64,000 nt of DNA from an uncultured Acidobacteriaceae bacterium (GTDB lineage: Bacteria; Acidobacteriota; Terriglobia; Terriglobales; Acidobacteriaceae): NCBI GenBank assembly GCA_963765825.1, contig CAVXXU010000001.1, forward strand, positions 26,801 through 90,800, given 5' to 3'. A model generated the notes under the pieces. That model was not told where the DNA came from and ran no database searches. It saw only the letters and a list, made by a program, of their open reading frames with translations. Within the stretch, counting starts at the first letter, position 1. Every line of letters begins with the position of its first letter. Positions 21,868 through 43,451 of the stretch are shown here, in pieces. A program made the translations under genes and the position numbers.

Positions 21868-23337
21868 ATGCCTTTAAAAACACTGTTTCTGAATCCCCCA
21901 TCGTTTGAAAACTTTGACGGAGGGGCCGGGTCGCGTTGGCCCGCCACCCGCGAAATCGAAAGCTACTGGTACCCGGTCTGGTTGGCTTATCCGGCGGGGA
22001 TGCTGGAAGGGGCGCGGCTGCTGGATGCGCCGCCGCATCACGTTTCGGGCGATGAGACCATCGAGATCGCGAAGGAGTACGAGTTTCTCGTGCTCTTCAC
22101 TTCGACGCCGGGATTTCCGGGCGACATTCTTCTGTCGCGCGCGATCAAGCAGGCGAATCCGAATATCAAGATTGCATTTGTGGGACCGCACGTGAGCGTG
22201 CTGCCGGAGAAGTCGCTGCGCGATTGTCCGGAAATCGATTTCGTTTGCCGCAAAGAGTTTGACTTCGCGGTGGTGGACTATGCCAAGGGTAAGCCACTGG
22301 CGGACATACCGGGTGTGTCGTTCCTGAAAGATGGAAAAGTTGTACACAATCCCGATGCGCCGCAGATTCAGGATCTGGACGCGCTGCCGCACGTCACCGA
22401 CGTCTACAGGCGCGATCTCGACGTCACGCGTTACAACGTGCCATTTCTGTTGCATCCGTTCGTTTCGCTCTACACCACGCGTGGCTGCCCGGCGCAGTGT
22501 ACGTTTTGCTTGTGGCCGCAGACGCTAAGCGGACACCCGTGGCGCAAACGTTCCGCCGATGACGTGGCCCGCGAAATGGCGAAAGCTAAGGAAATGTGGC
22601 CGAACGTAAAGGAATTTTTCTTCGACGACGACACTTTCAATATTCAGAAGGCACGCACCATCGAACTCTGCGCCAAGTTGAAGCCGTTGGGCCTGACCTG
22701 GTCCTGCACCTCGCGCGTGACCACCGATTTCGAAACTCTGAAGGCGATGAAGGAAGCGGGCTGCCGCCTGCTGATCGTGGGTTACGAGTCGGGAGACCAG
22801 CAGATCCTGAAGAATATCAAGAAAGGCGCCACGATCGAACGCGCGCGCCAGTTCACCAAGGACTGCCACAAACTGGGCCTGGTGATTCATGGCGACTTCA
22901 TCATGGGGCTGCCGGGTGAGACGCACGAGACCATCAACAACAGCATCGCGTTCGCCAAGGAACTCGACGTGGAAACCATCCAGGTTTCAGTGGCGCACGC
23001 CTATCCGGGCACCGAGCTTTACGACTACGCGGTAAAAAACGGATTCATGGTGGGCGACAACAAGATGGTCGATGAGGGTGGACATCAGCTGGCGCAGATT
23101 CAGTATCCGGGACTGCCGGCTGACGACATCATGTCGGCGGTGCATCGCTTCTATGACGAATATTACTTCCGGCCGAAGGCCGTGTTTCGCATCTTGAGGA
23201 AGGCGGCGTTCGACAGCAACGACCGCAAGCGCCTGTACAAAGAAGCGAAGTCGTTCCTGAAGCTGCGCGCGGCGCGCAACAAGATGGTGAAGAAACATCA
23301 CGACGAAGCCGCGACCGCTGAGCCGGTTAAAGCGTAG
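21868..23337 (+). CDS. hpnJ: hopanoid biosynthesis-associated B12-binding radical SAM protein HpnJ
   Basis: 489 aa. N-terminus MPLKTLFLNPPSFENFDGGAGSRWPATREIESYWYP matches my memory of the HpnJ family. Radical SAM cluster motif CPAQCTFC. Confidence 0.82.
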   Translation: MPLKTLFLNPPSFENFDGGAGSRWPATREIESYWYPVWLAYPAGMLEGARLLDAPPHHVSGDETIEIAKEYEFLVLFTSTPGFPGDILLSRAIKQANPNIKIAFVGPHVSVLPEKSLRDCPEIDFVCRKEFDFAVVDYAKGKPLADIPGVSFLKDGKVVHNPDAPQIQDLDALPHVTDVYRRDLDVTRYNVPFLLHPFVSLYTTRGCPAQCTFCLWPQTLSGHPWRKRSADDVAREMAKAKEMWPNVKEFFFDDDTFNIQKARTIELCAKLKPLGLTWSCTSRVTTDFETLKAMKEAGCRLLIVGYESGDQQILKNIKKGATIERARQFTKDCHKLGLVIHGDFIMGLPGETHETINNSIAFAKELDVETIQVSVAHAYPGTELYDYAVKNGFMVGDNKMVDEGGHQLAQIQYPGLPADDIMSAVHRFYDEYYFRPKAVFRILRKAAFDSNDRKRLYKEAKSFLKLRAARNKMVKKHHDEAATAEPVKA

Positions 23338-23342
23338 CGGCA

Positions 23343-23432
23343 GGTTTCAAAGTTTCACGTTTCAAGGTTTCAAGGCCTTGACTCTTGGCGTCTTTGAAAC
23401 CTTGAGACTCTGCAACCTTGAAAGTTTGAAGC
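23343..23432. repeat. GTTTCAA-based repeat block forming a long imperfect palindrome
   Basis: ggtttcaaagtttcacgtttcaaggtttcaagg ... ctttgaaaccttgagactctgcaaccttgaaagtttgaagcc. Fills the hpnJ-DMT spacer. Confidence 0.8.
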
Positions 23433-23443
23433 CTGAATTCTAA

Positions 23444-23950
23444 GTGACCTTCCGTAAGTATCTGGTGCTGGCTGGAGTGACCGTCTTTGCGGCGGCCGGG
23501 GACTCCATGCTCTCGCACGGAATGAAGCAGACCGGCAATATTTCCCTCCATCACCTGCAGAGCATTATCCTCGCGGTGCTCAATCCGTGGGTGGCGGTGG
23601 GCATTGTTCTGCTGCTCGCGTTTTTCGCCGCGTATATGAACGCACTCTCTTGGGCGGACCTGACTTATGTTTTGCCCGCGACCTCGCTGGGATATGTGCT
23701 GCTGGCGCTGGTGGCGAAGTTTGCGCTGCATGAGCAGGTCAGTCCGATGCGCTGGCTGGGAATTGCGCTGATTTCGGGTGGAGTGGGATTTGTGGCGGGA
23801 GGACCGGCGCTGACTGCGCAAGATTCCAATAAGCCGCTCATCGATTCCGCTCAGGGCAAGCTTCTGGCCGAAAGCTCGAGGAACTCCACCGTTGAGAACG
23901 GATCATCCGTTGAAGACGTTGCCGCGGTATCGAGCGGGGAGCGGCGATGA
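23444..23950 (+). CDS. 4-TM DMT/SMR-like (EamA-type half) membrane protein, subunit 1
   Basis: 168 aa, GTG start, four hydrophobic helices. Paralogous to the next ORF (GD..L...MKQ.G; ALSW.D...V.PA.SL; KF.LHE.V...RW). Confidence 0.65.
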   Translation: MTFRKYLVLAGVTVFAAAGDSMLSHGMKQTGNISLHHLQSIILAVLNPWVAVGIVLLLAFFAAYMNALSWADLTYVLPATSLGYVLLALVAKFALHEQVSPMRWLGIALISGGVGFVAGGPALTAQDSNKPLIDSAQGKLLAESSRNSTVENGSSVEDVAAVSSGERR

Positions 23951-24327
23951 GGGAAGCCTACACCTGGGGCGGCATTGTTGTAGTGGTCTTCGCGTCGGTG
24001 GTGGGGGATGTGTTGCTGGCGCGCGCCATGAAACAAGTCGGCGATGTGCATGAGCTTTGGAGCCGTTCGGGGTTTTGGGCCGTGGTGTCGCGTACGCTGG
24101 GCAACGCGAGTTTTTTTCTGGGCGTGACTGCGATGGCGGTGGCTTTTTTCAGTCTGCTGTTTGCGCTGTCGTGGGGAGACGTGAGTTTGGTGGCGCCGGC
24201 TGCGGCGTCGCTGACTTTCATCGGCAACGCGTTTGCGGCGAAAATCTTTCTGCATGAGAAAGTTGACCGCAGGCGCTGGATTGCGGCAGTGCTGGTGGCG
24301 GGGGGAGTGGCACTGCTGGCGGGATGA
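23947..24327 (+). CDS. 4-TM DMT/SMR-like (EamA-type half) membrane protein, subunit 2
   Basis: 126 aa, four helices. ATGA start/stop overlap with subunit 1. Shares motifs with subunit 1. Confidence 0.65.
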   Translation: MREAYTWGGIVVVVFASVVGDVLLARAMKQVGDVHELWSRSGFWAVVSRTLGNASFFLGVTAMAVAFFSLLFALSWGDVSLVAPAAASLTFIGNAFAAKIFLHEKVDRRRWIAAVLVAGGVALLAG

Positions 24328-29895: not shown

Positions 29896-31512
29896 CTAAC
29901 TGCTGAAGAGGCGCATCAGGTCGGAGGCTGGCAGGTCGGGGGAGAGGAAGCGCGGGACGGTGCGGCCGGCGGCGCGGGCGAGGGCTTCGGCGGCGAGATA
30001 GCCGCTGCGGACGGCGCCTTCCATGGTGGCGGGCCAGCCGGTGGCGGTCCAGTCTCCAGCGAGAAAAACGCGGGGCCATGCGGTGGCGGGCGAGGGGCGG
30101 TGGGCGTCGATGCCGGGGCGCGGGGAATAGGTGGCGTGGAGTTCCTTGATTACCGTGGATTTCACAAGATTGGCAGTGCGGGCGGCGGGGAAGAATTCGC
30201 GGACTTCGGCGAGAGCGAGGTCGACGATTTCGGCGCGGGATTTGTCGATGAGGGATTTGGAGGAGCTGACGACGAGCTCGATGTAGCTGCCGGTCGACTC
30301 AGGATTCTTTCGCCCCTCCGGGGCTATCGCTTCATCGTTGTCGTCGGCCCCACGGCTTGCGCCGTGGGCTGCATTCTTGCGCCGCTCCGCGGCTTGTGCT
30401 GCCGATGTGGGGATAGGGTCGCCTCCGCCGCGGGTGGGATTGCCGGTGGTGCGCATGGGTTGGAGGCGGGATTTGTGAAACATCCATTGGATGGTGCGGT
30501 CGAGGAGGACGGCGTGGTCGAGGTCGGAGATCTGGCGGTCGAACCAGAGGTGGATGCCGGTGATGGGTGCGGTTTCGAAATGGCTGAGTTGCTCGCGGAT
30601 GGGGGCACTTTCGGGAGTGTCGGGGAGGACTTTTTGTAGAGCGTCGAAGGGTAGGGCCAGGATCAGGAAGTCAAAATCCCCACCCTGTCCCTGCAAAGTG
30701 CGCAGGGACAAGGGTGGGGCACCCTCGTTATCCCCACGCTTGTTGGAATTTCTTTCTTCTTGATTTCGGAGTTGCAGGTGAACGCGGTCCGCGTCGGCGG
30801 TGAAACTTTCTATTGGTTGGCGGAAGTGGAGTTCGCCGCCGCGGGCGCGGATGTAGTCGCCGGCGGCGTTGTAGAGGTCGGTGAGGGGGACGGTGGGCAC
30901 GCCCATTTGGCGGGCGGCGGGAGATTTCATGGATTCGCGGACGACTTGAGCGGCGGCTGAGATGGAGATGAGATCGAGTTCCTCGCTCAGGGCGCTGATC
31001 AGGATGGGGCGCCAGAAGCGCTCGACGGCTTGCTTGGTTTGACCGTGCTGATCGAGCCAGTGCTGGAAAGATTGTCCGGTGTCGGGTTGCGAGGTAAGCG
31101 TGAGCGGGACCAGTGCGCGGGCGATGGCGAGTTTGTCGGTAACGCTGAGGAAATGGAAACGCAGAAACGACGGGGCGGTGTGGAGCGGGGCGGGGAGCGA
31201 GGAGGATTTCATGATTGACGTGCGGCCGCCGGGCTCGATGAAGGTCATTTCGTCGTACCAGCGGATTTGGTTGGCGACGCCGATACGGTCGTAAAACTCA
31301 AGCAGGTTGGTGCAGACGCGAAACAGGACGTGCTGGCAGTTGTCGACGACTTCGCCGGTGCCGGGATGTTCCCAGGAGGAAGCACGGCCGCCGAGGAAGG
31401 GACGCTTCTCGAAGAGGGTGACGTGAAAACCGGCGTCGGACAAGGCGCAGGCGGCGGCGAGTCCGGCGAGACCGCCTCCGGCGACTGCGACTTTGGGTTG
31501 GGTGGGAGGCAT
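29896..31512 (-). CDS. hpnE: hydroxysqualene dehydroxylase (FAD-dependent amine-oxidase fold) HpnE, carrying two repeat-derived in-frame insertions
   Basis: 538 aa. Rossmann motif VAVAGGGLAGLAAACALSDAGFHVTLFEKRPFLGGRA. Sits downstream of hpnC-hpnD on the same strand. Confidence 0.85.
   Translation of the reverse strand: MPPTQPKVAVAGGGLAGLAAACALSDAGFHVTLFEKRPFLGGRASSWEHPGTGEVVDNCQHVLFRVCTNLLEFYDRIGVANQIRWYDEMTFIEPGGRTSIMKSSSLPAPLHTAPSFLRFHFLSVTDKLAIARALVPLTLTSQPDTGQSFQHWLDQHGQTKQAVERFWRPILISALSEELDLISISAAAQVVRESMKSPAARQMGVPTVPLTDLYNAAGDYIRARGGELHFRQPIESFTADADRVHLQLRNQEERNSNKRGDNEGAPPLSLRTLQGQGGDFDFLILALPFDALQKVLPDTPESAPIREQLSHFETAPITGIHLWFDRQISDLDHAVLLDRTIQWMFHKSRLQPMRTTGNPTRGGGDPIPTSAAQAAERRKNAAHGASRGADDNDEAIAPEGRKNPESTGSYIELVVSSSKSLIDKSRAEIVDLALAEVREFFPAARTANLVKSTVIKELHATYSPRPGIDAHRPSPATAWPRVFLAGDWTATGWPATMEGAVRSGYLAAEALARAAGRTVPRFLSPDLPASDLMRLFSS
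30300..30420. repeat. REP-like GC-rich hairpin element embedded in frame in hpnE
   Basis: Contains cccacggcttgcgccgtggg (8-bp stem), flanked by cgcccctccggggc and gcgccgctccgcggc. Translated as the low-complexity AAERRKNAAHGASRGADDNDEAIAPEGRK. Confidence 0.55.
30672..30724. repeat. palindromic element family P (copy 1), in frame inside hpnE
   Basis: caaaatccccaccctgtccctgcaaagtgcgcagggacaagggtggggcaccc, with ~17-bp imperfect stem arms. Confidence 0.85.
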
Positions 31513-31564
31513 TCTTAGTTAGAGACTTAGGGTCGAGTCACAAAACTTACTTCTGACGACGAAG

Positions 31565-31635
31565 ATCAGAAGTCAGAAGTCAAAAATCAAAAGTCAGAAG
31601 TCAGAAGTCAACAAGTCAGAAGTCACAAGTCAGAG
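31565..31635. repeat. short-period (7-8 nt) tandem repeat, GTCAGAA/GTCAAAA units
   Basis: atcagaagtcagaagtcaaaaatcaaaagtcagaagtcagaagtcaacaagtcagaagtcacaagtcagag, in the hpnD-hpnE spacer. Confidence 0.85.
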
Positions 31636-31636
31636 T

Positions 31637-31686
31637 AAAATCCCCACCCTCTTTCGCAGAAAACGCGAAAGAAGGATGGGGCACCC
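31637..31686. repeat. palindromic element family P (copy 2), intergenic hpnD-hpnE
   Basis: aaaatccccaccctctttcgcagaaaacgcgaaagaaggatggggcaccc. Same termini as copies 1 and 3; the inner stem sequence differs but is still complementary. Confidence 0.8.
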
Positions 31687-31706
31687 ATCCGCGTCTTTTT
31701 GCATGA

Positions 31707-32645
31707 TCACGTTATGCGTCGGAGGAAACCTTTCGCTAGGATGCGGAGCTTTTCCCATGTGCTGAGGGAGATTTTGGCAGTGAAGACGTCGTATTGTTTT
31801 TCGGCGATTTTTTCGAGCAGGCGGCGGTAGATAGTTACCAGCACCCAGAGCGCGGGCTGGCTGTCTTCGGCGATATAGGGAATGAGCGCTTCACCGGAGA
31901 GGTAGAACTTGCGGGCGCGGTCGGCTTCGAGTTCGAGGACGGGGCGGAAGCGGGCCGCGTCGGGCGTCGCGAGAAGTTCGGCGGCGGATAAATTGAACTT
32001 CGCCAGATCTTCTTCGGGAAGATAGACGCGGCCCATGCCGGCGTCTTCTTTCACGTCGCGAATAATGTTGGTGAGCTGAAAGGCGAGGCCGCAGGTTTCG
32101 GCGAGAGGCTCGGCGGCGGGGTCGCGGTATCCGAAGATGTGAATGCAGACCAGGCCGACGACCGAAGCGACGCGATAACAATAGAGGCGAAGGTCTTCGA
32201 AAGTTCGGTACTGGATGGTTATGGCCGGAGCGCCGGTGGTTTGGGCTTCGGCTTGTTCCACGTCCATGGCGGTGCCGTGGGCGAGTTCGTCGAGCAATCC
32301 GGCGGGAATGGAAAAGCGGCGCTGAGCGTCGGTGAGGGCGAGCAGGATGGCGTCGTCGGTGGGGTGGCCCTGCTGGGCGCGATGCAGAGCGTCGAGCCAG
32401 GTCTCGAGTTTCTGGCGACGCTCGGGCAAACTTAATTTTGGGTCGTCGGTGATGTCGTCGCAAAGACGCATGAAGGCGTAGACGGCGCACAGGGCTTCGC
32501 GTTTGCGGCGGGGGAGAACGAGGAAGGCGTAGTAGAAATTTTTAGCCGCGGTGCGAGTGATGCCCTTGCACACGGAGTAGGCCATGACGAGCTGAGGCGG
32601 AGCTGGAGTCCAGGGAACGGGGACCTGCTGGGTGCCGACGCTCAT
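31707..32645 (-). CDS. hpnD: presqualene diphosphate synthase HpnD
   Basis: 312 aa. Squalene/phytoene synthase fold with Asp-rich motif RLCDDITDD. ATGA overlap with the hpnC stop. Confidence 0.85.
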   Translation of the reverse strand: MSVGTQQVPVPWTPAPPQLVMAYSVCKGITRTAAKNFYYAFLVLPRRKREALCAVYAFMRLCDDITDDPKLSLPERRQKLETWLDALHRAQQGHPTDDAILLALTDAQRRFSIPAGLLDELAHGTAMDVEQAEAQTTGAPAITIQYRTFEDLRLYCYRVASVVGLVCIHIFGYRDPAAEPLAETCGLAFQLTNIIRDVKEDAGMGRVYLPEEDLAKFNLSAAELLATPDAARFRPVLELEADRARKFYLSGEALIPYIAEDSQPALWVLVTIYRRLLEKIAEKQYDVFTAKISLSTWEKLRILAKGFLRRIT

Positions 32646-33589
32646 GGCTTGCCTCCGAAGATCTTTGCTATTGCGGCGCGGGCTACCAGAGCGAGTTTCC
32701 GGGCCTTGGAGATGGCGGGACGCTTGCCGAGGACGGCATAGTTCTGTTGTTCAATGGCGTTCAGAATTTCCAGGCCGCCGCGGCTGAAGAGATCGAGATC
32801 GACGGCGAGTTCGCGGTCTACTTTTTTTATCAGCGGCATCCCTTGGCGAAACCAGTCGCGGGCGCGCTCGACTTCAAACTTCATCATGGCGCAGAAGGCG
32901 GGAGTGTTCTGATTGTTGGCAATTTCCTGCTGGGTGACGTTGAAGCGGCGGAGGTCTTCGAGGGGGAGATAGACGCGTCCCTTGTCGTAGTCGATGCTGA
33001 CATCCTGCCAGAAGTTGGCGAGTTGCAAGGCGGTGCAGGTGAAATCGGAAAGATACTGGCGCTCGACGTCGCGATATCCGCAGAGGTAGAGGACGAGATG
33101 GCCGACGGGATTGGCGGAGTAGCGGCAATAGGCCAGGACGTCGTTGAAAGTTTCGAAGCGGGTTACGGTTTGGTCCTGGCGAAAGGCGCGGAGAAGATCG
33201 GAGAACTCGAGCTTGGGGATATCAAATTCGCGGACGGTTTCGGCGAGCGCGACGAAAACAGGATGGTGCGGATTGCCGTCGTAGCAGGCGTCGAGCTCGA
33301 GTTGCCATTGATCGAGCAGGGCGAGGGAAGCGGCGGGGTCGCCGACTTCGTCGCCGAGATCGTCGGAGATGCGGCAGTAGGCGTAGACATTGAAGAAATG
33401 CTGGCGGAGACGGCTGGGGAGGAACCAGCTGGCGACGGAGAAATTTTCGTAGTGGGTGCGGGCGAGGCGGGCGCAGTATTCGCGGGCTTCCGCGAGAGTG
33501 GGAGGAGTGGCCGGAATGGCGTAGTCGGAGGGCAGGCGGGACCAGCCGAGAGCGGCGGGGGACGCGGATTGGGTCACGACTTCGGTCAT
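32642..33589 (-). CDS. hpnC: hydroxysqualene synthase HpnC
   Basis: 315 aa. Squalene/phytoene synthase fold with YAYCRISDDLGDEV. First gene of the hpnCDE order. Confidence 0.85.
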   Translation of the reverse strand: MTEVVTQSASPAALGWSRLPSDYAIPATPPTLAEAREYCARLARTHYENFSVASWFLPSRLRQHFFNVYAYCRISDDLGDEVGDPAASLALLDQWQLELDACYDGNPHHPVFVALAETVREFDIPKLEFSDLLRAFRQDQTVTRFETFNDVLAYCRYSANPVGHLVLYLCGYRDVERQYLSDFTCTALQLANFWQDVSIDYDKGRVYLPLEDLRRFNVTQQEIANNQNTPAFCAMMKFEVERARDWFRQGMPLIKKVDRELAVDLDLFSRGGLEILNAIEQQNYAVLGKRPAISKARKLALVARAAIAKIFGGKP

Positions 33590-41468: not shown

Positions 41469-43451
41469 ATGGATACAAACTCCCCCGAGTCCAATGCAAC
41501 TTCCGCACCTTTAGGTTCGAGTCCGCAGCTTCGCTTCGGGAAAATTGAGGACCTGGGCAGCCGCGTGGGCGCGGCGATTGCGGCTGCGCGCAAGTTTCTT
41601 TTTTCGCAGCAGCATGAAGACGGGTACTGGTGCGGGGAACTCGAAGCGGACACGACTCTGGAGTCGGATTACATTCTGCTCCACACCTTGCTCGGGACAG
41701 GGAACCAGGAGCGGTTTCAGAAGGCGGCGAACTGGATTCTGCGGCACCAGAACGAAGACGGTGGGTGGAGCATTTACGCGGCCGGGCCCTCGAACATCAG
41801 TGCGTCGGTAAAGGCTTATTTCGGGTTGAAGCTGGCGGGGTACGCGGCGGATCATGCGGCATTGCAGCGGGCGCGCAAAAAAATCCTGGAGATGGGCGGC
41901 GTCACCGAAGTTAATACATTCACCAAGATCTATCTATGTTTCTTCGGGCAGTACGATTACGACGCGGTTCCAGCGATTCCGCCGGAGATCGTGCTGTTTC
42001 CGAACTGGTTCTGGTTCAACATCTACGAGATTTCTTCGTGGTCGCGGGCCATCCTGGTGCCGCTGTCAATCTGCTACGCGAAAAAGCCGTTTAAGAAAAT
42101 TCCGCGCGAGATGGGCGTGGAAGAATTGTTTGTTGGCGGAATGCAGAAGTCGCGCATGCACCTGCAGTGGGCGAAGAAAATCGTCTCGTGGCGCAATTTC
42201 TTTCTGGTGCTCGATCGCATGACGCATTGGCTGGAGCGCGTGCACGTGCGTCCGCTGCGGTCCATCGCTTTGAAAAGCGCAGAGCGGTGGATGCTGGAGC
42301 GCTTCGAGATGAGTGATGGGCTGGGCGCGATTTATCCGTCAATGATGAACGCGATCATTGCGCTGCGCTGCCTGGGATATTCGCTGGACGATCCGCAGGT
42401 GATTCGCGCGATGGACGAGTTCGAGAAGCTGGGGATCGAAGAGGAAGACACGTTCCGCATGCAGCCCTGCATGTCGCCGGTGTGGGATACGGCGTACGCG
42501 CTGTTTGCGTTGGGAGAGGCGGGAGTACCGGCGAACGATCCGCGGATGGTGAAGAGCGCGGATTGGATTCTACAGAAGCAGGTTCGCAATCCGGGCGACT
42601 GGCAGGTCAAGAATAAAGCGGGCAAGCCGGGCGGATGGTATTTCGAGTTTAACAATGAGTTCTATCCCGACGTGGATGACAGCGCGATGGTGTGCCTGGG
42701 ACTGAGCCGGGTGGAACACCCTAATGGCCGCTACCAGCGCGAGTCGGTGCAGCGCGCGATCGACTGGATTTTCTCAATGCAGTGTAAGAACGGCGGCTGG
42801 GCGTCGTTTGACAAAGACAATGACAAGATGGTGTTCCAGTACATTCCGTTTGCCGATCACAACGCGATGCTTGATCCGCCGACCGTGGACATTACGGGAC
42901 GCATTCTGGAGATGCTGGCGACCTATGGATATGACAAGAATCATCCGGCGGTGAAGCGGGCGATCACCTTTATCAGAGAAGAACAGGAGCCGGACGGAAG
43001 CTGGTTCGGACGCTGGGGCGTGAACTACATTTACGGCACGGCGCTGGTGTTGCGCGGTTTGGACGCGATTGGCATGGACCTGCACGAGCCGTGCGTGCAA
43101 CAGGGCGCGGAGTGGCTGCGCATGGTGCAGAACGCCGACGGTGGCTGGGGCGAGACCGTGGGGTCATACGATGATCCGAACCTGCGCGGGCAGGGCGAGA
43201 GTACGCCTTCGCAGACTGCGTGGGCGATCCTGGGATTGCTGGCGGCCAATGATATTCGCAGCGACTCGGTGGCGCGCGGAGTGGCCTATCTGCTGCGCAC
43301 GCAGAGGAAAGATGGATCGTGGGATGAGCCGTTCTTTACGGGCACCGGATTTCCACGCGTGTTTTATCTGATGTACCACCTTTATCGCGATTACTTCCCG
43401 CTGCTGGCGCTGACTACCTACGGCAAGATGATGGAGAAGGCGGCAAGCTAA
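41469..43451 (+). CDS. shc: squalene-hopene cyclase
   Basis: 660 aa. DxDD motif in FYPDVDDSAMV. Multiple QW repeats (QNEDGGWS, QCKNGGWA, QNADGGWG, QRKDGSWD). Confidence 0.95.
   Translation: MDTNSPESNATSAPLGSSPQLRFGKIEDLGSRVGAAIAAARKFLFSQQHEDGYWCGELEADTTLESDYILLHTLLGTGNQERFQKAANWILRHQNEDGGWSIYAAGPSNISASVKAYFGLKLAGYAADHAALQRARKKILEMGGVTEVNTFTKIYLCFFGQYDYDAVPAIPPEIVLFPNWFWFNIYEISSWSRAILVPLSICYAKKPFKKIPREMGVEELFVGGMQKSRMHLQWAKKIVSWRNFFLVLDRMTHWLERVHVRPLRSIALKSAERWMLERFEMSDGLGAIYPSMMNAIIALRCLGYSLDDPQVIRAMDEFEKLGIEEEDTFRMQPCMSPVWDTAYALFALGEAGVPANDPRMVKSADWILQKQVRNPGDWQVKNKAGKPGGWYFEFNNEFYPDVDDSAMVCLGLSRVEHPNGRYQRESVQRAIDWIFSMQCKNGGWASFDKDNDKMVFQYIPFADHNAMLDPPTVDITGRILEMLATYGYDKNHPAVKRAITFIREEQEPDGSWFGRWGVNYIYGTALVLRGLDAIGMDLHEPCVQQGAEWLRMVQNADGGWGETVGSYDDPNLRGQGESTPSQTAWAILGLLAANDIRSDSVARGVAYLLRTQRKDGSWDEPFFTGTGFPRVFYLMYHLYRDYFPLLALTTYGKMMEKAAS

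What the first reader, a model, noticed from the sequence alone, without database searches (positions are those of the whole stretch)
21868..24327. hpnJ is followed by an overlapping pair of 4-TM DMT/SMR-like half-transporters: a candidate hopanoid head-group flippase
HpnJ is the radical SAM enzyme known to form the cyclitol ether head group of bacteriohopanepolyols. Here it stands apart from the other hpn genes.

It is followed, after a 106-bp spacer filled with a GTTTCAA-type palindromic repeat, by two paralogous 4-TM proteins of 168 and 126 aa. Their genes overlap by ATGA. This architecture mirrors heterodimeric lipid-linked-sugar flippases such as ArnE/ArnF. Known hopanoid transport uses the RND protein HpnN, and I know of no description of a small DMT pair linked to hpnJ.

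The usual partners hpnI (glycosyltransferase) and hpnK (deacetylase) are not adjacent.
Basis: inference. Interest (0 to 1): 0.6.

Follow-up and report, generated by a model that had tools for sequence, protein, structure and literature searches.

The report
Hopanoid-linked small membrane transporter pair
Two small overlapping membrane-protein genes after the hopanoid gene hpnJ belong to an unnamed family that sits beside, or is fused to, the enzymes that put an amino sugar on hopanoid lipids, making them a testable candidate for the unknown step that flips these lipids across the inner membrane.

Summary
hpnJ (21868-23337) is followed by a 106-nt hairpin repeat and two paralogous 4-helix genes, A (23444-23950) and B (23947-24327), overlapping by ATGA. 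One detail is wrong: hpnE/D/C and shc lie 5.6 and 17 kb away in the same window.

The link to hopanoid head-group synthesis is strong.
- In 301 genomes of the phylum, strong B matches occur in 33. All 33 carry hpnJ; none of the other genomes has one.
- 29 of the 33 pairs lie within 2 kb downstream of hpnJ. Three more lie beside hpnI or hpnK.
- 65 of 71 further Terriglobales loci keep hpnJ-A-B.
- B is fused to the glycosyltransferase HpnI in two genera and in four protein clusters.
- Cyanobacterial-type contigs carry a fused A-B gene inside hpnI/J/K clusters.
- Where the pair is missing, an HpnL-like gene takes its slot.

B folds like an SMR protomer (EmrE, Gdx). Charge bias predicts an antiparallel A/B dimer. 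Similarity to ArnE is only remote.

Most likely (about 0.5) it is a flippase or transporter for glucosaminyl or cyclitol-ether hopanoids, parallel to ArnC/ArnD/ArnEF. Transport is untested. No paper in the library describes it. This scan has found the same module before on other DNA (at least 14 genomes).

The parts
21868..23337 (+). hpnJ, a B12-binding radical SAM enzyme of bacteriohopanetetrol cyclitol-ether synthesis
   Evidence: TIGR03471 786 bits (cut-off 577.6). PF02310 and PF04055 match. It is the only copy over the cut-off in the genome.
23338..23443 (+). 106-nt spacer made of a dispersed palindromic repeat (GTTTCAA / TTGAAAC). It forms a long RNA hairpin with no T-run after it.
   Evidence: Repeats. 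Fold of -43.9 kcal/mol, z -5.0. Other genome copies of the motif. In 20 of 65 related loci A starts within 60 nt of the end of the hpnJ match, so the spacer looks like an insertion.
23444..23950 (+). Subunit A: a 168-aa, 4-helix DMT/SMR-like protein with a variable hydrophilic C-terminal tail. Predicted N-in/C-in.
   Evidence: PF00892 22 bits, below the gathering score. Homologous to B at 99.7%. Alignment A2 has invariant G19, D72, E97 and W104, and D20 in 30 of 32 sequences. K+R bias.
23947..24327 (+). Subunit B: a 126-aa, 4-helix DMT/SMR-like protein. Predicted N-out/C-out. Its start overlaps the stop of A by ATGA.
   Evidence: PF00892 32.5 bits (cut-off 28.2). Alignment A1 has an acidic residue at position 21 in 32 of 32 sequences, and E104 and R110 invariant. 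The AF2 model has pLDDT 76. Its nine best PDB matches are all SMR protomers, Gdx-Clo or EmrE; the best five have target-normalised TM 0.67-0.77. K+R is 8.1 in loops 1+3 against 0.8 elsewhere.
29896..33589 (-). Context: hpnE, hpnD and hpnC (squalene synthesis for hopanoids), 5.6 kb from the pair
   Evidence: TIGR03467 447 bits. TIGR03464 347 bits. TIGR03465 248 bits, just under its cut-off.
41469..43451 (+). Context: shc, squalene-hopene cyclase
   Evidence: TIGR01507 795 bits at G000:C1:68362-70233, which is window 41562-43433. ORF.

Best explanation
A and B are the two halves of a small SMR/DMT-type membrane transporter that belongs to the hopanoid amino-sugar module.

Established pathway: HpnI adds GlcNAc to bacteriohopanetetrol (BHT) on the cytoplasmic face. 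HpnK removes the acetyl group. HpnJ contracts the ring to the cyclitol ether.

Proposed role (inferred): A and B pair as an antiparallel heterodimer. They carry the now cationic amino-sugar head group of the hopanoid across the inner membrane. Conserved acidic residues in helix 1 of each subunit are proposed to bind the amine. This is the same three-step logic as ArnC (glycosyltransferase), ArnD (deacylase) and ArnE/ArnF (4-helix pair that flips the amino-sugar lipid).

Shown here: family membership, fold, paralogy, translational coupling, conserved synteny, and gene fusion with HpnI.

Inferred, not shown: heterodimer formation, topology, the substrate, and flipping itself.
For: 1. Phylogenetic profile. 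In 301 genomes of the phylum, 36 have HpnJ over the cut-off. B-profile matches of 95 bits or more occur in 33 genomes. 32 of these are among the 36, and one more has an HpnJ match that covers only part of the model, beside the pair. No other genome has such a match.

2. Position. 29 of the 33 pairs lie within 2 kb downstream of hpnJ on the same strand. 65 of 71 further Terriglobales loci have hpnJ-A-B, and 50 of those 65 keep the 4-nt overlap.

3. Rearranged but still linked.
- hpnJ-A-B-hpnI, and hpnJ-A-hpnI with only a B remnant (L021, L037).
- hpnJ-hpnK followed by the pair (L029, L035, L038-L040).
- A-B-hpnI where the pair is unlinked from hpnJ (G189).
- hpnJ-hpnK-A-B-hpnI and hpnJ-A-B-hpnI on metagenome contigs.

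4. Fusions. B is fused to HpnI in two genera (386 and 379 bits against a cut-off of 310), with hpnK-A directly upstream. It is also fused in representatives P0179, P0200, P0203 and P0270.

5. Another phylum. Fused A-B genes of about 280 aa lie in hpnK/hpnI/hpnJ clusters on cyanobacterial-type contigs, one of them next to kaiABC. A published Leptospirillum hopanoid cluster lists an EamA protein beside a glycosyltransferase and a B12/radical SAM gene, without comment (PMC12654047).

6. Slot replacement. Mycetohabitans has hpnI-J-K followed by a translationally coupled lysyl-PG-synthase-domain protein (HpnL type). In the pair-less acidobacteria G286 and G056, an HpnL-like gene follows hpnJ or hpnK directly. 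This genome has no HpnL match and no HpnN over the cut-off.

7. Fold and residues. The B model matches SMR protomers. Each half of the fused homolog does too: pLDDT 89, EmrE and Gdx target-normalised TM about 0.7. An acidic residue in helix 1 is conserved in both subunits. K+R bias predicts opposite orientations. An N-out/C-out B also fits fusion to the N-terminal helix of HpnI.

8. Remote full-length similarity of the B profile to E. coli ArnE: hhalign E 1.6e-4 over 103 columns.
Against: - No experiment or transport assay exists.
- Four HpnJ-positive genomes in the sample lack an intact pair. The one proteobacterial hpnIJK locus examined has none. So the pair is not universally required.
- Solved SMR proteins carry small cations, not lipids, so fold alone does not point to a lipid substrate.
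- Scores against the ArnE and ArnF models are far below their cut-offs, and there is no ArnF similarity.
- B is fused to the first enzyme (HpnI), not the last (HpnJ). This fits an accessory subunit as well as a flippase.
- More distant relatives sit in YdjC-DMT-GT21 triads in genomes where no shc was found. The wider family is therefore not hopanoid-specific.
- Many of the supporting genomes are close kin, so the counts overstate independence.
- Published BLAST surveys report that subdivision 1 acidobacteria lack hpnK (PMC5462960). Here the only candidate scores below the cut-off. The true end product in this organism is therefore uncertain.
Confidence: 0.5

Rival explanations
1. A and B are non-transporting membrane partners of the glycosyltransferase HpnI. 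As accessory subunits they anchor or organise an HpnI/HpnK/HpnJ complex at the membrane, or present the hopanoid acceptor to it. Nothing is moved across the bilayer.
For: - B is fused directly to HpnI in several lineages.
- The pair sits between the enzyme genes and is translationally coupled to them.
- HpnK and HpnJ are soluble-type enzymes that act on a membrane lipid and would benefit from a membrane dock (inference).
Against: - The proteins keep the SMR transporter fold.
- They keep a conserved membrane-embedded acidic residue in helix 1 of both subunits, plus invariant E/R motifs. Such features are expected for substrate or proton binding, not for a passive anchor.
- HpnI already has its own membrane helices. 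In the fusion, the match to the HpnI model starts at model position 7, at residue 230, after the B domain.
Confidence: 0.2
2. The pair is an ordinary small-solute SMR/DMT exporter, for example of a cationic by-product or toxic intermediate of the pathway. It is co-expressed with the hopanoid enzymes but does not handle the lipid.
For: - The closest solved folds are small-cation exporters, Gdx-Clo and EmrE.
- EamA-family proteins are mostly metabolite exporters (Pfam family description).
Against: - The pathway has no obvious soluble cationic product that needs export. UDP, acetate, methionine and 5'-deoxyadenosine are handled by general metabolism (established biochemistry).
- Fusion to a lipid glycosyltransferase is hard to explain for a solute exporter.
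- So is replacement of its slot by an HpnL-type protein.
Confidence: 0.12
3. The association is inherited gene order without a shared function. The pair has an unrelated role and merely hitch-hikes in the hpnJ operon of one phylum.
For: Most of the supporting loci come from one order, Terriglobales, and are not independent.
Against: - The link survives rearrangement into at least five gene orders.
- It survives separation from hpnJ, in which case the pair stays with hpnI or hpnK.
- It survives gene fusion and transfer to cyanobacterial-type genomes.
- No genome without hpnJ in the sample has a strong B match.
Confidence: 0.04

Closest known systems
ArnE/ArnF (PmrL/PmrM), the undecaprenyl-phosphate-alpha-L-Ara4N flippase of E. 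coli
   Same: - Two small 4-helix proteins of about 110-130 aa from overlapping genes (arnE and arnF share a base at 2372892).
- They sit in an operon with a GT2 glycosyltransferase and a deacylase that unmask an amino sugar on a lipid.
- Remote full-length similarity of the B profile to ArnE (hhalign E 1.6e-4).
   Different: - Scores of about 23 bits against cut-offs of 92 (ArnE) and 99 (ArnF), and no similarity to ArnF.
- The lipid carrier would be a C35 hopanoid, not undecaprenyl phosphate.
- There is no ArnT-like periplasmic transferase.
- B occurs fused to the glycosyltransferase.
SMR family: EmrE, Gdx-Clo, and the paired SMRs EbrAB and MdtIJ
   Same: - The 4-helix protomer fold. Target-normalised TM is 0.67-0.77 and rmsd 3.3-4.5 Å for the five best matches.
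- A conserved acidic residue in helix 1.
- As in paired SMRs, two paralogs with opposite charge bias, which predicts an antiparallel heterodimer (knowledge of paired SMRs is my own).
   Different: - No Pfam PF00893 match at E up to 0.1.
- A longer loop 1 that holds one or two short extra helices.
- The context is lipid glycosylation rather than drug or guanidinium export.
HpnL (TIGR03476, lysyl-phosphatidylglycerol-synthase membrane-domain family)
   Same: It occupies the same slot, translationally coupled after hpnI-J-K in Mycetohabitans and after hpnJ or hpnK in the pair-less acidobacteria G286 and G056. It is likewise an uncharacterised polytopic membrane protein linked to hopanoids (preprint 10.1101/2025.07.29.667474).
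   Different: It has an unrelated fold and size (about 320 aa). Below its cut-off, the model also hits generic family members in many genomes without hpnJ. Genome-wide complementarity with the pair therefore could not be shown; only the positional replacement could.
HpnN, the RND-type hopanoid transporter
   Same: It is the one established hopanoid transport protein. It moves hopanoids towards the outer membrane (my own knowledge of Doughty et al. 2011).
   Different: It is a large 12-helix RND protein that acts after the lipid is already in the outer leaflet. This genome has no match over the cut-off: best 60 bits against 751.85.
Ten-helix DMT transporters (YddG, SLC35 nucleotide-sugar transporters, LicB)
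   Same: The EamA domain matches B. The fused A-B homolog gives Foldseek probabilities of 0.85-0.96 to these structures.
   Different: The overall superposition is poor (TM 0.3-0.4). Each half has four full helices rather than five.

Membership tests
HpnJ (TIGR03471) | Whole-protein score over the curated equivalog cut-off of 577.6 bits | tested here: met
   786 bits, covering model positions 2-472 of 472.
HpnJ (TIGR03471) | B12-binding domain plus radical SAM domain | tested here: met
   PF02310 49.8 bits and PF04055 80.5 bits.
EamA / DMT superfamily (PF00892) | Score over the Pfam gathering threshold of 28.2 bits | tested here: met
   B scores 32.5 bits. A scores only 22.1 bits on its own, but A is homologous to B at 99.7% profile probability.
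EamA / DMT superfamily (PF00892) | Five-helix repeat, normally two per protein (ten helices) | tested here: not met
   Four membrane helices per protein. Only model positions 64-133 of 135 are matched. These are half-size, 4-helix forms.
ArnE (NF011625) / ArnF (NF002816) | Score over the NCBIfam equivalog cut-offs of 92 and 99 bits | tested here: not met
   A scores 22.9 and B 23.0 bits against ArnE. ArnF is not listed for either. hhalign of the B profile against E. coli ArnE gives probability 50%; against ArnF, none.
ArnE (NF011625) / ArnF (NF002816) | Location in an arn operon with arnT, arnC and arnD | tested here: not met
   The neighbours are hpnJ here and hpnI or hpnK elsewhere. There are no arn genes.
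ArnE (NF011625) / ArnF (NF002816) | Flipping of a lipid-linked amino sugar | not testable with these tools
   This needs genetics or reconstitution.
SMR family (PF00893) | Sequence match to the Multi_Drug_Res model | tested here: not met
   Not among the Pfam matches at E up to 0.1.
SMR family (PF00893) | Four-helix protomer fold | tested here: met
   The nine best PDB matches of the B model are all Gdx-Clo or EmrE chains. The best five have target-normalised TM 0.67-0.77 and Foldseek probability 1.00, though the E-values are weak at 0.06-0.3.
SMR family (PF00893) | Membrane-embedded carboxylate in helix 1 (E14 of EmrE) | tested here: inconclusive
   D or E at B position 21 in 32 of 32 sequences. 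D at A position 20 in 30 of 32. Structural equivalence to E14 was not checked residue by residue.
SMR family (PF00893) | Antiparallel dimer | tested here: inconclusive
   K+R bias predicts opposite orientations. No structural support was obtained.

The most novel reading that the evidence does not exclude
GT21 glycosyltransferase, YdjC deacetylase and the 4-helix DMT pair form an old, portable three-step module: make the glycolipid, unmask the amine, flip it. It would be the hopanoid counterpart of ArnC/ArnD/ArnEF for cationic glucosaminyl lipids. In Pseudomonadota and some acidobacteria the flipping part would be supplied instead by the unrelated HpnL. This would assign a function to HpnL and fill the missing inner-membrane step upstream of HpnN.
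Probability: 0.3. Interest if true: 0.75.

Novelty: new variant of a known kind. Interest (0 to 1): 0.62.

Why it matters
Hopanoids with polar head groups are made on the cytoplasmic face, yet they function in the outer leaflet and the outer membrane. Only the later RND step (HpnN) is known, and this genome has no HpnN over the cut-off.

A dedicated small transporter that travels with the head-group enzymes, and is sometimes fused to them, would be a concrete, knock-out-ready candidate for the missing flipping step. It also gives a testable idea for the unexplained HpnL.

It would further extend the ArnE/ArnF principle, a 4-helix pair that flips an amino-sugar lipid, from polyprenyl carriers to triterpenoid lipids. 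That bears on how amino-bacteriohopanepolyol biomarkers are produced and exposed.

The most recent microsynteny study of hopanoid loci names HpnL, HpnM, HpnS and HpnT but no EamA or DMT protein.

Tried and rejected
- **Complex prediction of A (residues 1-126) with B, using alignments.** Score 0.01, no verdict. It counts neither for nor against binding.
- **The search for related loci with HpnJ in genome contigs.** It returned only close Terriglobales relatives. This spent the single scan without reaching other phyla. Cross-phylum context came instead from the representative search with contig look-ups and from the plasmid collection.
- **Methylobacterium hit H17.** It carries no annotation, so it was unusable.
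- **The genome search centred on L135.** The genome is not held.
- **Genome-wide complementarity of HpnL and the pair.** The HpnL model below its cut-off hits generic relatives in 64 of 301 genomes, including some that carry the pair. Only the positional replacement is used.
- **PDB sequence search with the B profile.** Nothing meaningful.
- **Fold of the fused homolog against ten-helix DMT structures.** Only a poor global fit, TM 0.3-0.4. The relative orientation of the two halves in that model is not used.
- **L058 in-frame A-B fusion of 274 aa.** It has a non-hydrophobic linker. It is probably a one-base indel at the ATGA overlap in a single long metagenome-assembled contig, so it is not counted as a fusion.
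- **Read laying.**
  - Soil metatranscriptome contigs of relatives cover hpnJ and A.
  - One 151-nt contig from an RNA library is identical to 23669-23819.
  - Two RNA-library contigs join 23292 to 23442/23444, which skips the spacer.
  - Contigs cannot show a single transcript, and DNA carry-over cannot be excluded. This is no more than a weak hint of expression.
- **Protein atlas look-up.** It gave only "EamA domain-containing protein, Acidobacteriota".
Full report
**What is in the window**

The ORF 21868-23337(+) is a true HpnJ. It scores 786 bits against TIGR03471 (cut-off 577.6) and has B12-binding and radical SAM domains. It is the only copy over the cut-off in this 5.4-Mb genome of 8 contigs, which is 100% complete by marker genes.

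A spacer of exactly 106 nt follows (23338-23443). It consists of direct and inverted GTTTCAA / TTGAAAC repeats. As RNA it folds into one long hairpin of -43.9 kcal/mol, z = -5.0, with no T-run after it. The motif recurs at a dozen or more other places in the genome, so this is a copy of a small dispersed palindromic repeat. In 20 of 65 related loci gene A starts within 60 nt of the end of the hpnJ match, and in many the gap from the hpnJ stop is 6-20 nt. The spacer here therefore looks like an insertion into a tight operon.

Gene A (23444-23950, GTG start, 168 aa) and gene B (23947-24327, 126 aa) overlap by ATGA. They are paralogs, with hhalign probability 99.7% and E 8.6e-27. hpnE, hpnD and hpnC lie at 29896-33589 on the other strand, and shc lies at 41469-43451. 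hpnJ therefore sits in a loose hopanoid region. hpnI (two copies on contig C6) and a sub-threshold HpnK-like gene (contig C3) are indeed elsewhere. hpnH is on contig C2.

**What the two small proteins are**

- **Family.** B passes the Pfam EamA threshold (32.5 against 28.2 bits). A does not on its own (22.1 bits). Both give only about 23 bits against the ArnE model, whose cut-off is 92.
- **Helices and topology.** Each has four hydrophobic helices. In B, loops 1 and 3 hold on average 8.1 Lys+Arg against 0.8 on the other side. In A the bias is weaker and reversed: 5.5 for the N-terminus plus tail, against 2.2. This predicts B as N-out/C-out and A as N-in/C-in. That is an antiparallel heterodimer, as in paired SMR proteins and in the inverted repeats of ten-helix DMT transporters.
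- **Conserved residues.** Both subunits keep an acidic residue in helix 1: D or E in 32 of 32 B sequences, and D in 30 of 32 A sequences. Both keep an invariant Glu before helix 4.
- **Fold.** An AlphaFold model of B (pLDDT 76) has only SMR protomers among its nine best PDB matches. For the best five (Gdx-Clo, EmrE) the target-normalised TM is 0.67-0.77 and the rmsd 3.3-4.5 Å. A well-predicted model of a naturally fused homolog (pLDDT 89, pTM 0.82) matches EmrE and Gdx with each half. It fits ten-helix DMT structures only loosely.
- **Other comparisons.** No solved structure is related by sequence. The B profile aligns over its full length with E. coli ArnE at hhalign E 1.6e-4 (probability 50%) and not with ArnF.

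**Conservation of the link to hopanoid head-group genes**

In an even sample of 301 genomes of the phylum, 36 have HpnJ over the cut-off. A profile of B finds matches of 95 bits or more in 33 genomes. 32 of these are among the 36. The other one has an HpnJ match that covers only part of the model, next to the pair. None of the remaining genomes has such a match.

29 of the 33 pairs lie within 2 kb downstream of hpnJ on the same strand. Among 80 further loci fetched with HpnJ (all Terriglobales-like), 65 of the 71 with enough downstream sequence have A then B, and 50 of those keep the 4-nt overlap. B is 126 aa in 62 of all 82 pairs, while A varies only in its tail.

The link also survives rearrangement.
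- Other families of the phylum have hpnJ-A-B-hpnI, or hpnJ-hpnK followed by the pair.
- In G189 the pair is on a different contig from hpnJ and is followed by hpnI (314.9 bits).
- In two genera of another family (G016, G251) the order is hpnK, A, then B fused in frame to HpnI. HpnK scores 286 and 285 bits. HpnI scores 386 and 379 bits over residues 230-602 and 362-733.

**Beyond the phylum sample**

A search of 1.8 billion cluster representatives with the B profile found 35 proteins below E 1e-30.
- Four further B-HpnI fusion representatives were found. P0179 and P0203 score over the HpnI cut-off, P0200 just under it, and P0270 is cut off.
- There are seven representatives (P0137, P0141, P0143, P0145, P0146, P0148, P0150) of a fused A-B protein of about 280 aa.
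- All six contig look-ups showed a GT21 (HpnI-type) gene adjacent or fused. Four showed a B12/radical SAM gene. Two of those were compared with HpnJ of this window and are 48-49% identical. Three showed a YdjC (HpnK-type) gene.
- One contig with two fused copies flanking hpnK and hpnI also carries kaiA, kaiB and kaiC. Another carries domains that I know as typical of cyanobacteria. These are cyanobacterial-type genomes.
- A 2025 paper on Leptospirillum lists an EamA-like protein among the domains of a hopanoid cluster, without comment (PMC12654047).
- Weaker single relatives in acidobacteria without hpnJ again sit between a YdjC gene and a GT21 gene. One of them is fused to the GT21. No shc was found in those two genomes.

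The conserved core is therefore glycosyltransferase, deacetylase and 4-helix transporter. hpnJ is a frequent addition.

**Where the pair is missing**

Three HpnJ-positive acidobacteria lack it (G024, G056, G286), and a fourth (G269) keeps only a remnant of B. In G286 an HpnL-like gene (155 bits, below the 195.65 cut-off) starts directly after hpnJ. In G056 one follows hpnI-hpnJ-hpnK.

In Mycetohabitans the annotated order is hpnI, hpnJ, hpnK and a lysyl-phosphatidylglycerol-synthase-domain protein. The last three genes are joined by 4-nt overlaps. This genome has no HpnL match and no HpnN over the cut-off. A genome-wide exclusion test failed, because the HpnL model below its cut-off hits generic relatives widely.

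What is said of G024 (an HpnJ-positive genome without the pair, with order hpnJ-hpnK-hpnI and an unlinked HpnL-like gene) rests on an unpublished genome. It may not be published without the depositors' permission.

**Interpretation**

Established work says that HpnI, HpnK and HpnJ convert BHT to BHT-glucosamine and on to the cyclitol ether (as summarised in PMC5462960). All three steps need cytoplasmic substrates.

The most economical reading of the context is that A/B handles the resulting amino-sugar hopanoid at the membrane. Most probably it flips the lipid to the outer leaflet. This parallels ArnC, ArnD and ArnE/ArnF. I put this at about 0.5.

Alternatives:
- An accessory, non-transporting subunit of HpnI (0.2). 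The fusion fits this equally well.
- A small-solute exporter (0.12). The closest solved folds favour it, but the fusion and the replacement by HpnL argue against it.
- Mere inherited gene order is essentially excluded.

One caveat for this organism. Published surveys report that subdivision 1 acidobacteria lack hpnK, and the only candidate here is sub-threshold. The actual head group made is therefore not certain.

**Novelty**

- No paper in the searchable library combines hpnJ with EamA.
- None links hopanoids to a DMT flippase. Such terms co-occur only incidentally.
- The recent microsynteny study of hopanoid loci does not mention such a protein.
- Public annotations call these proteins only "EamA family transporter" or "DMT-like permease".
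- This scan has flagged the same module before on other DNA: 14 notes in at least 14 genomes, and three follow-ups with the same conclusion. I read those notes only after my own tests were done.

Noticed in passing
L058:5482-6303 (+): A and B read as one 274-aa frame with a non-hydrophobic linker. This would force a parallel arrangement, against the charge bias. It is probably a one-base indel at the ATGA overlap in a single long metagenome-assembled contig.
   Followed up: partly
L154 (G152:C60:16500-25000) and L155 (G117:C45:15500-24500): More distant single B-like proteins lie between a YdjC deacetylase gene and a GT21 glycosyltransferase gene. In G152 the B-like protein is fused to the GT21, with DUF6962 and an FAD-binding oxidase upstream. 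No shc was found in either genome. This may be a glucosaminyl-lipid module for a non-hopanoid lipid.
   Followed up: partly
L156 (G279:C1:1006149-1006888): One genome holds a second, diverged pair of 130-aa paralogs, next to a POT-family peptide transporter gene and an S1/P1 nuclease gene. It has no hpn neighbours.
   Followed up: no
L135:6879-7748 and L136:1303-2169: A conserved gene of 288-289 aa with no family match directly follows the fused DMT gene on two cyanobacterial-type contigs. It may be a further unnamed member of the module.
   Followed up: no
G000:C7:327324-328787 (outside the window): The genome holds a second HpnJ-like B12/radical SAM gene (343.6 bits, below the cut-off). Similar sub-threshold paralogs occur in several other families of the phylum.
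   Followed up: no
G000:C6:1166559-1168843 (outside the window): Two HpnI genes over the cut-off (363 and 341 bits) lie side by side on opposite strands, far from hpnJ and from the pair.
   Followed up: no
whole genome G000: No HpnN match over the cut-off (best 60 bits) and no HpnL match, although shc, hpnH, hpnC/D/E, hpnI and hpnJ are present. The known hopanoid export route seems to be missing in this organism.
   Followed up: partly
window 23338-23443 and about a dozen other genome sites: The hairpin repeat between hpnJ and A belongs to a low-copy dispersed family (GTTTCAA-N-GTTTCA). Metagenome contigs of relatives join 23292 directly to 23442/23444, so close relatives lack the insert.
   Followed up: partly
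L030, L033, L063, L090, L096: In some Terriglobales loci 0.8-1.8 kb lies between hpnJ and A. At E 1e-10 it matches neither HpnK nor HpnI by tblastn. The inserted gene or genes were not identified.
   Followed up: no
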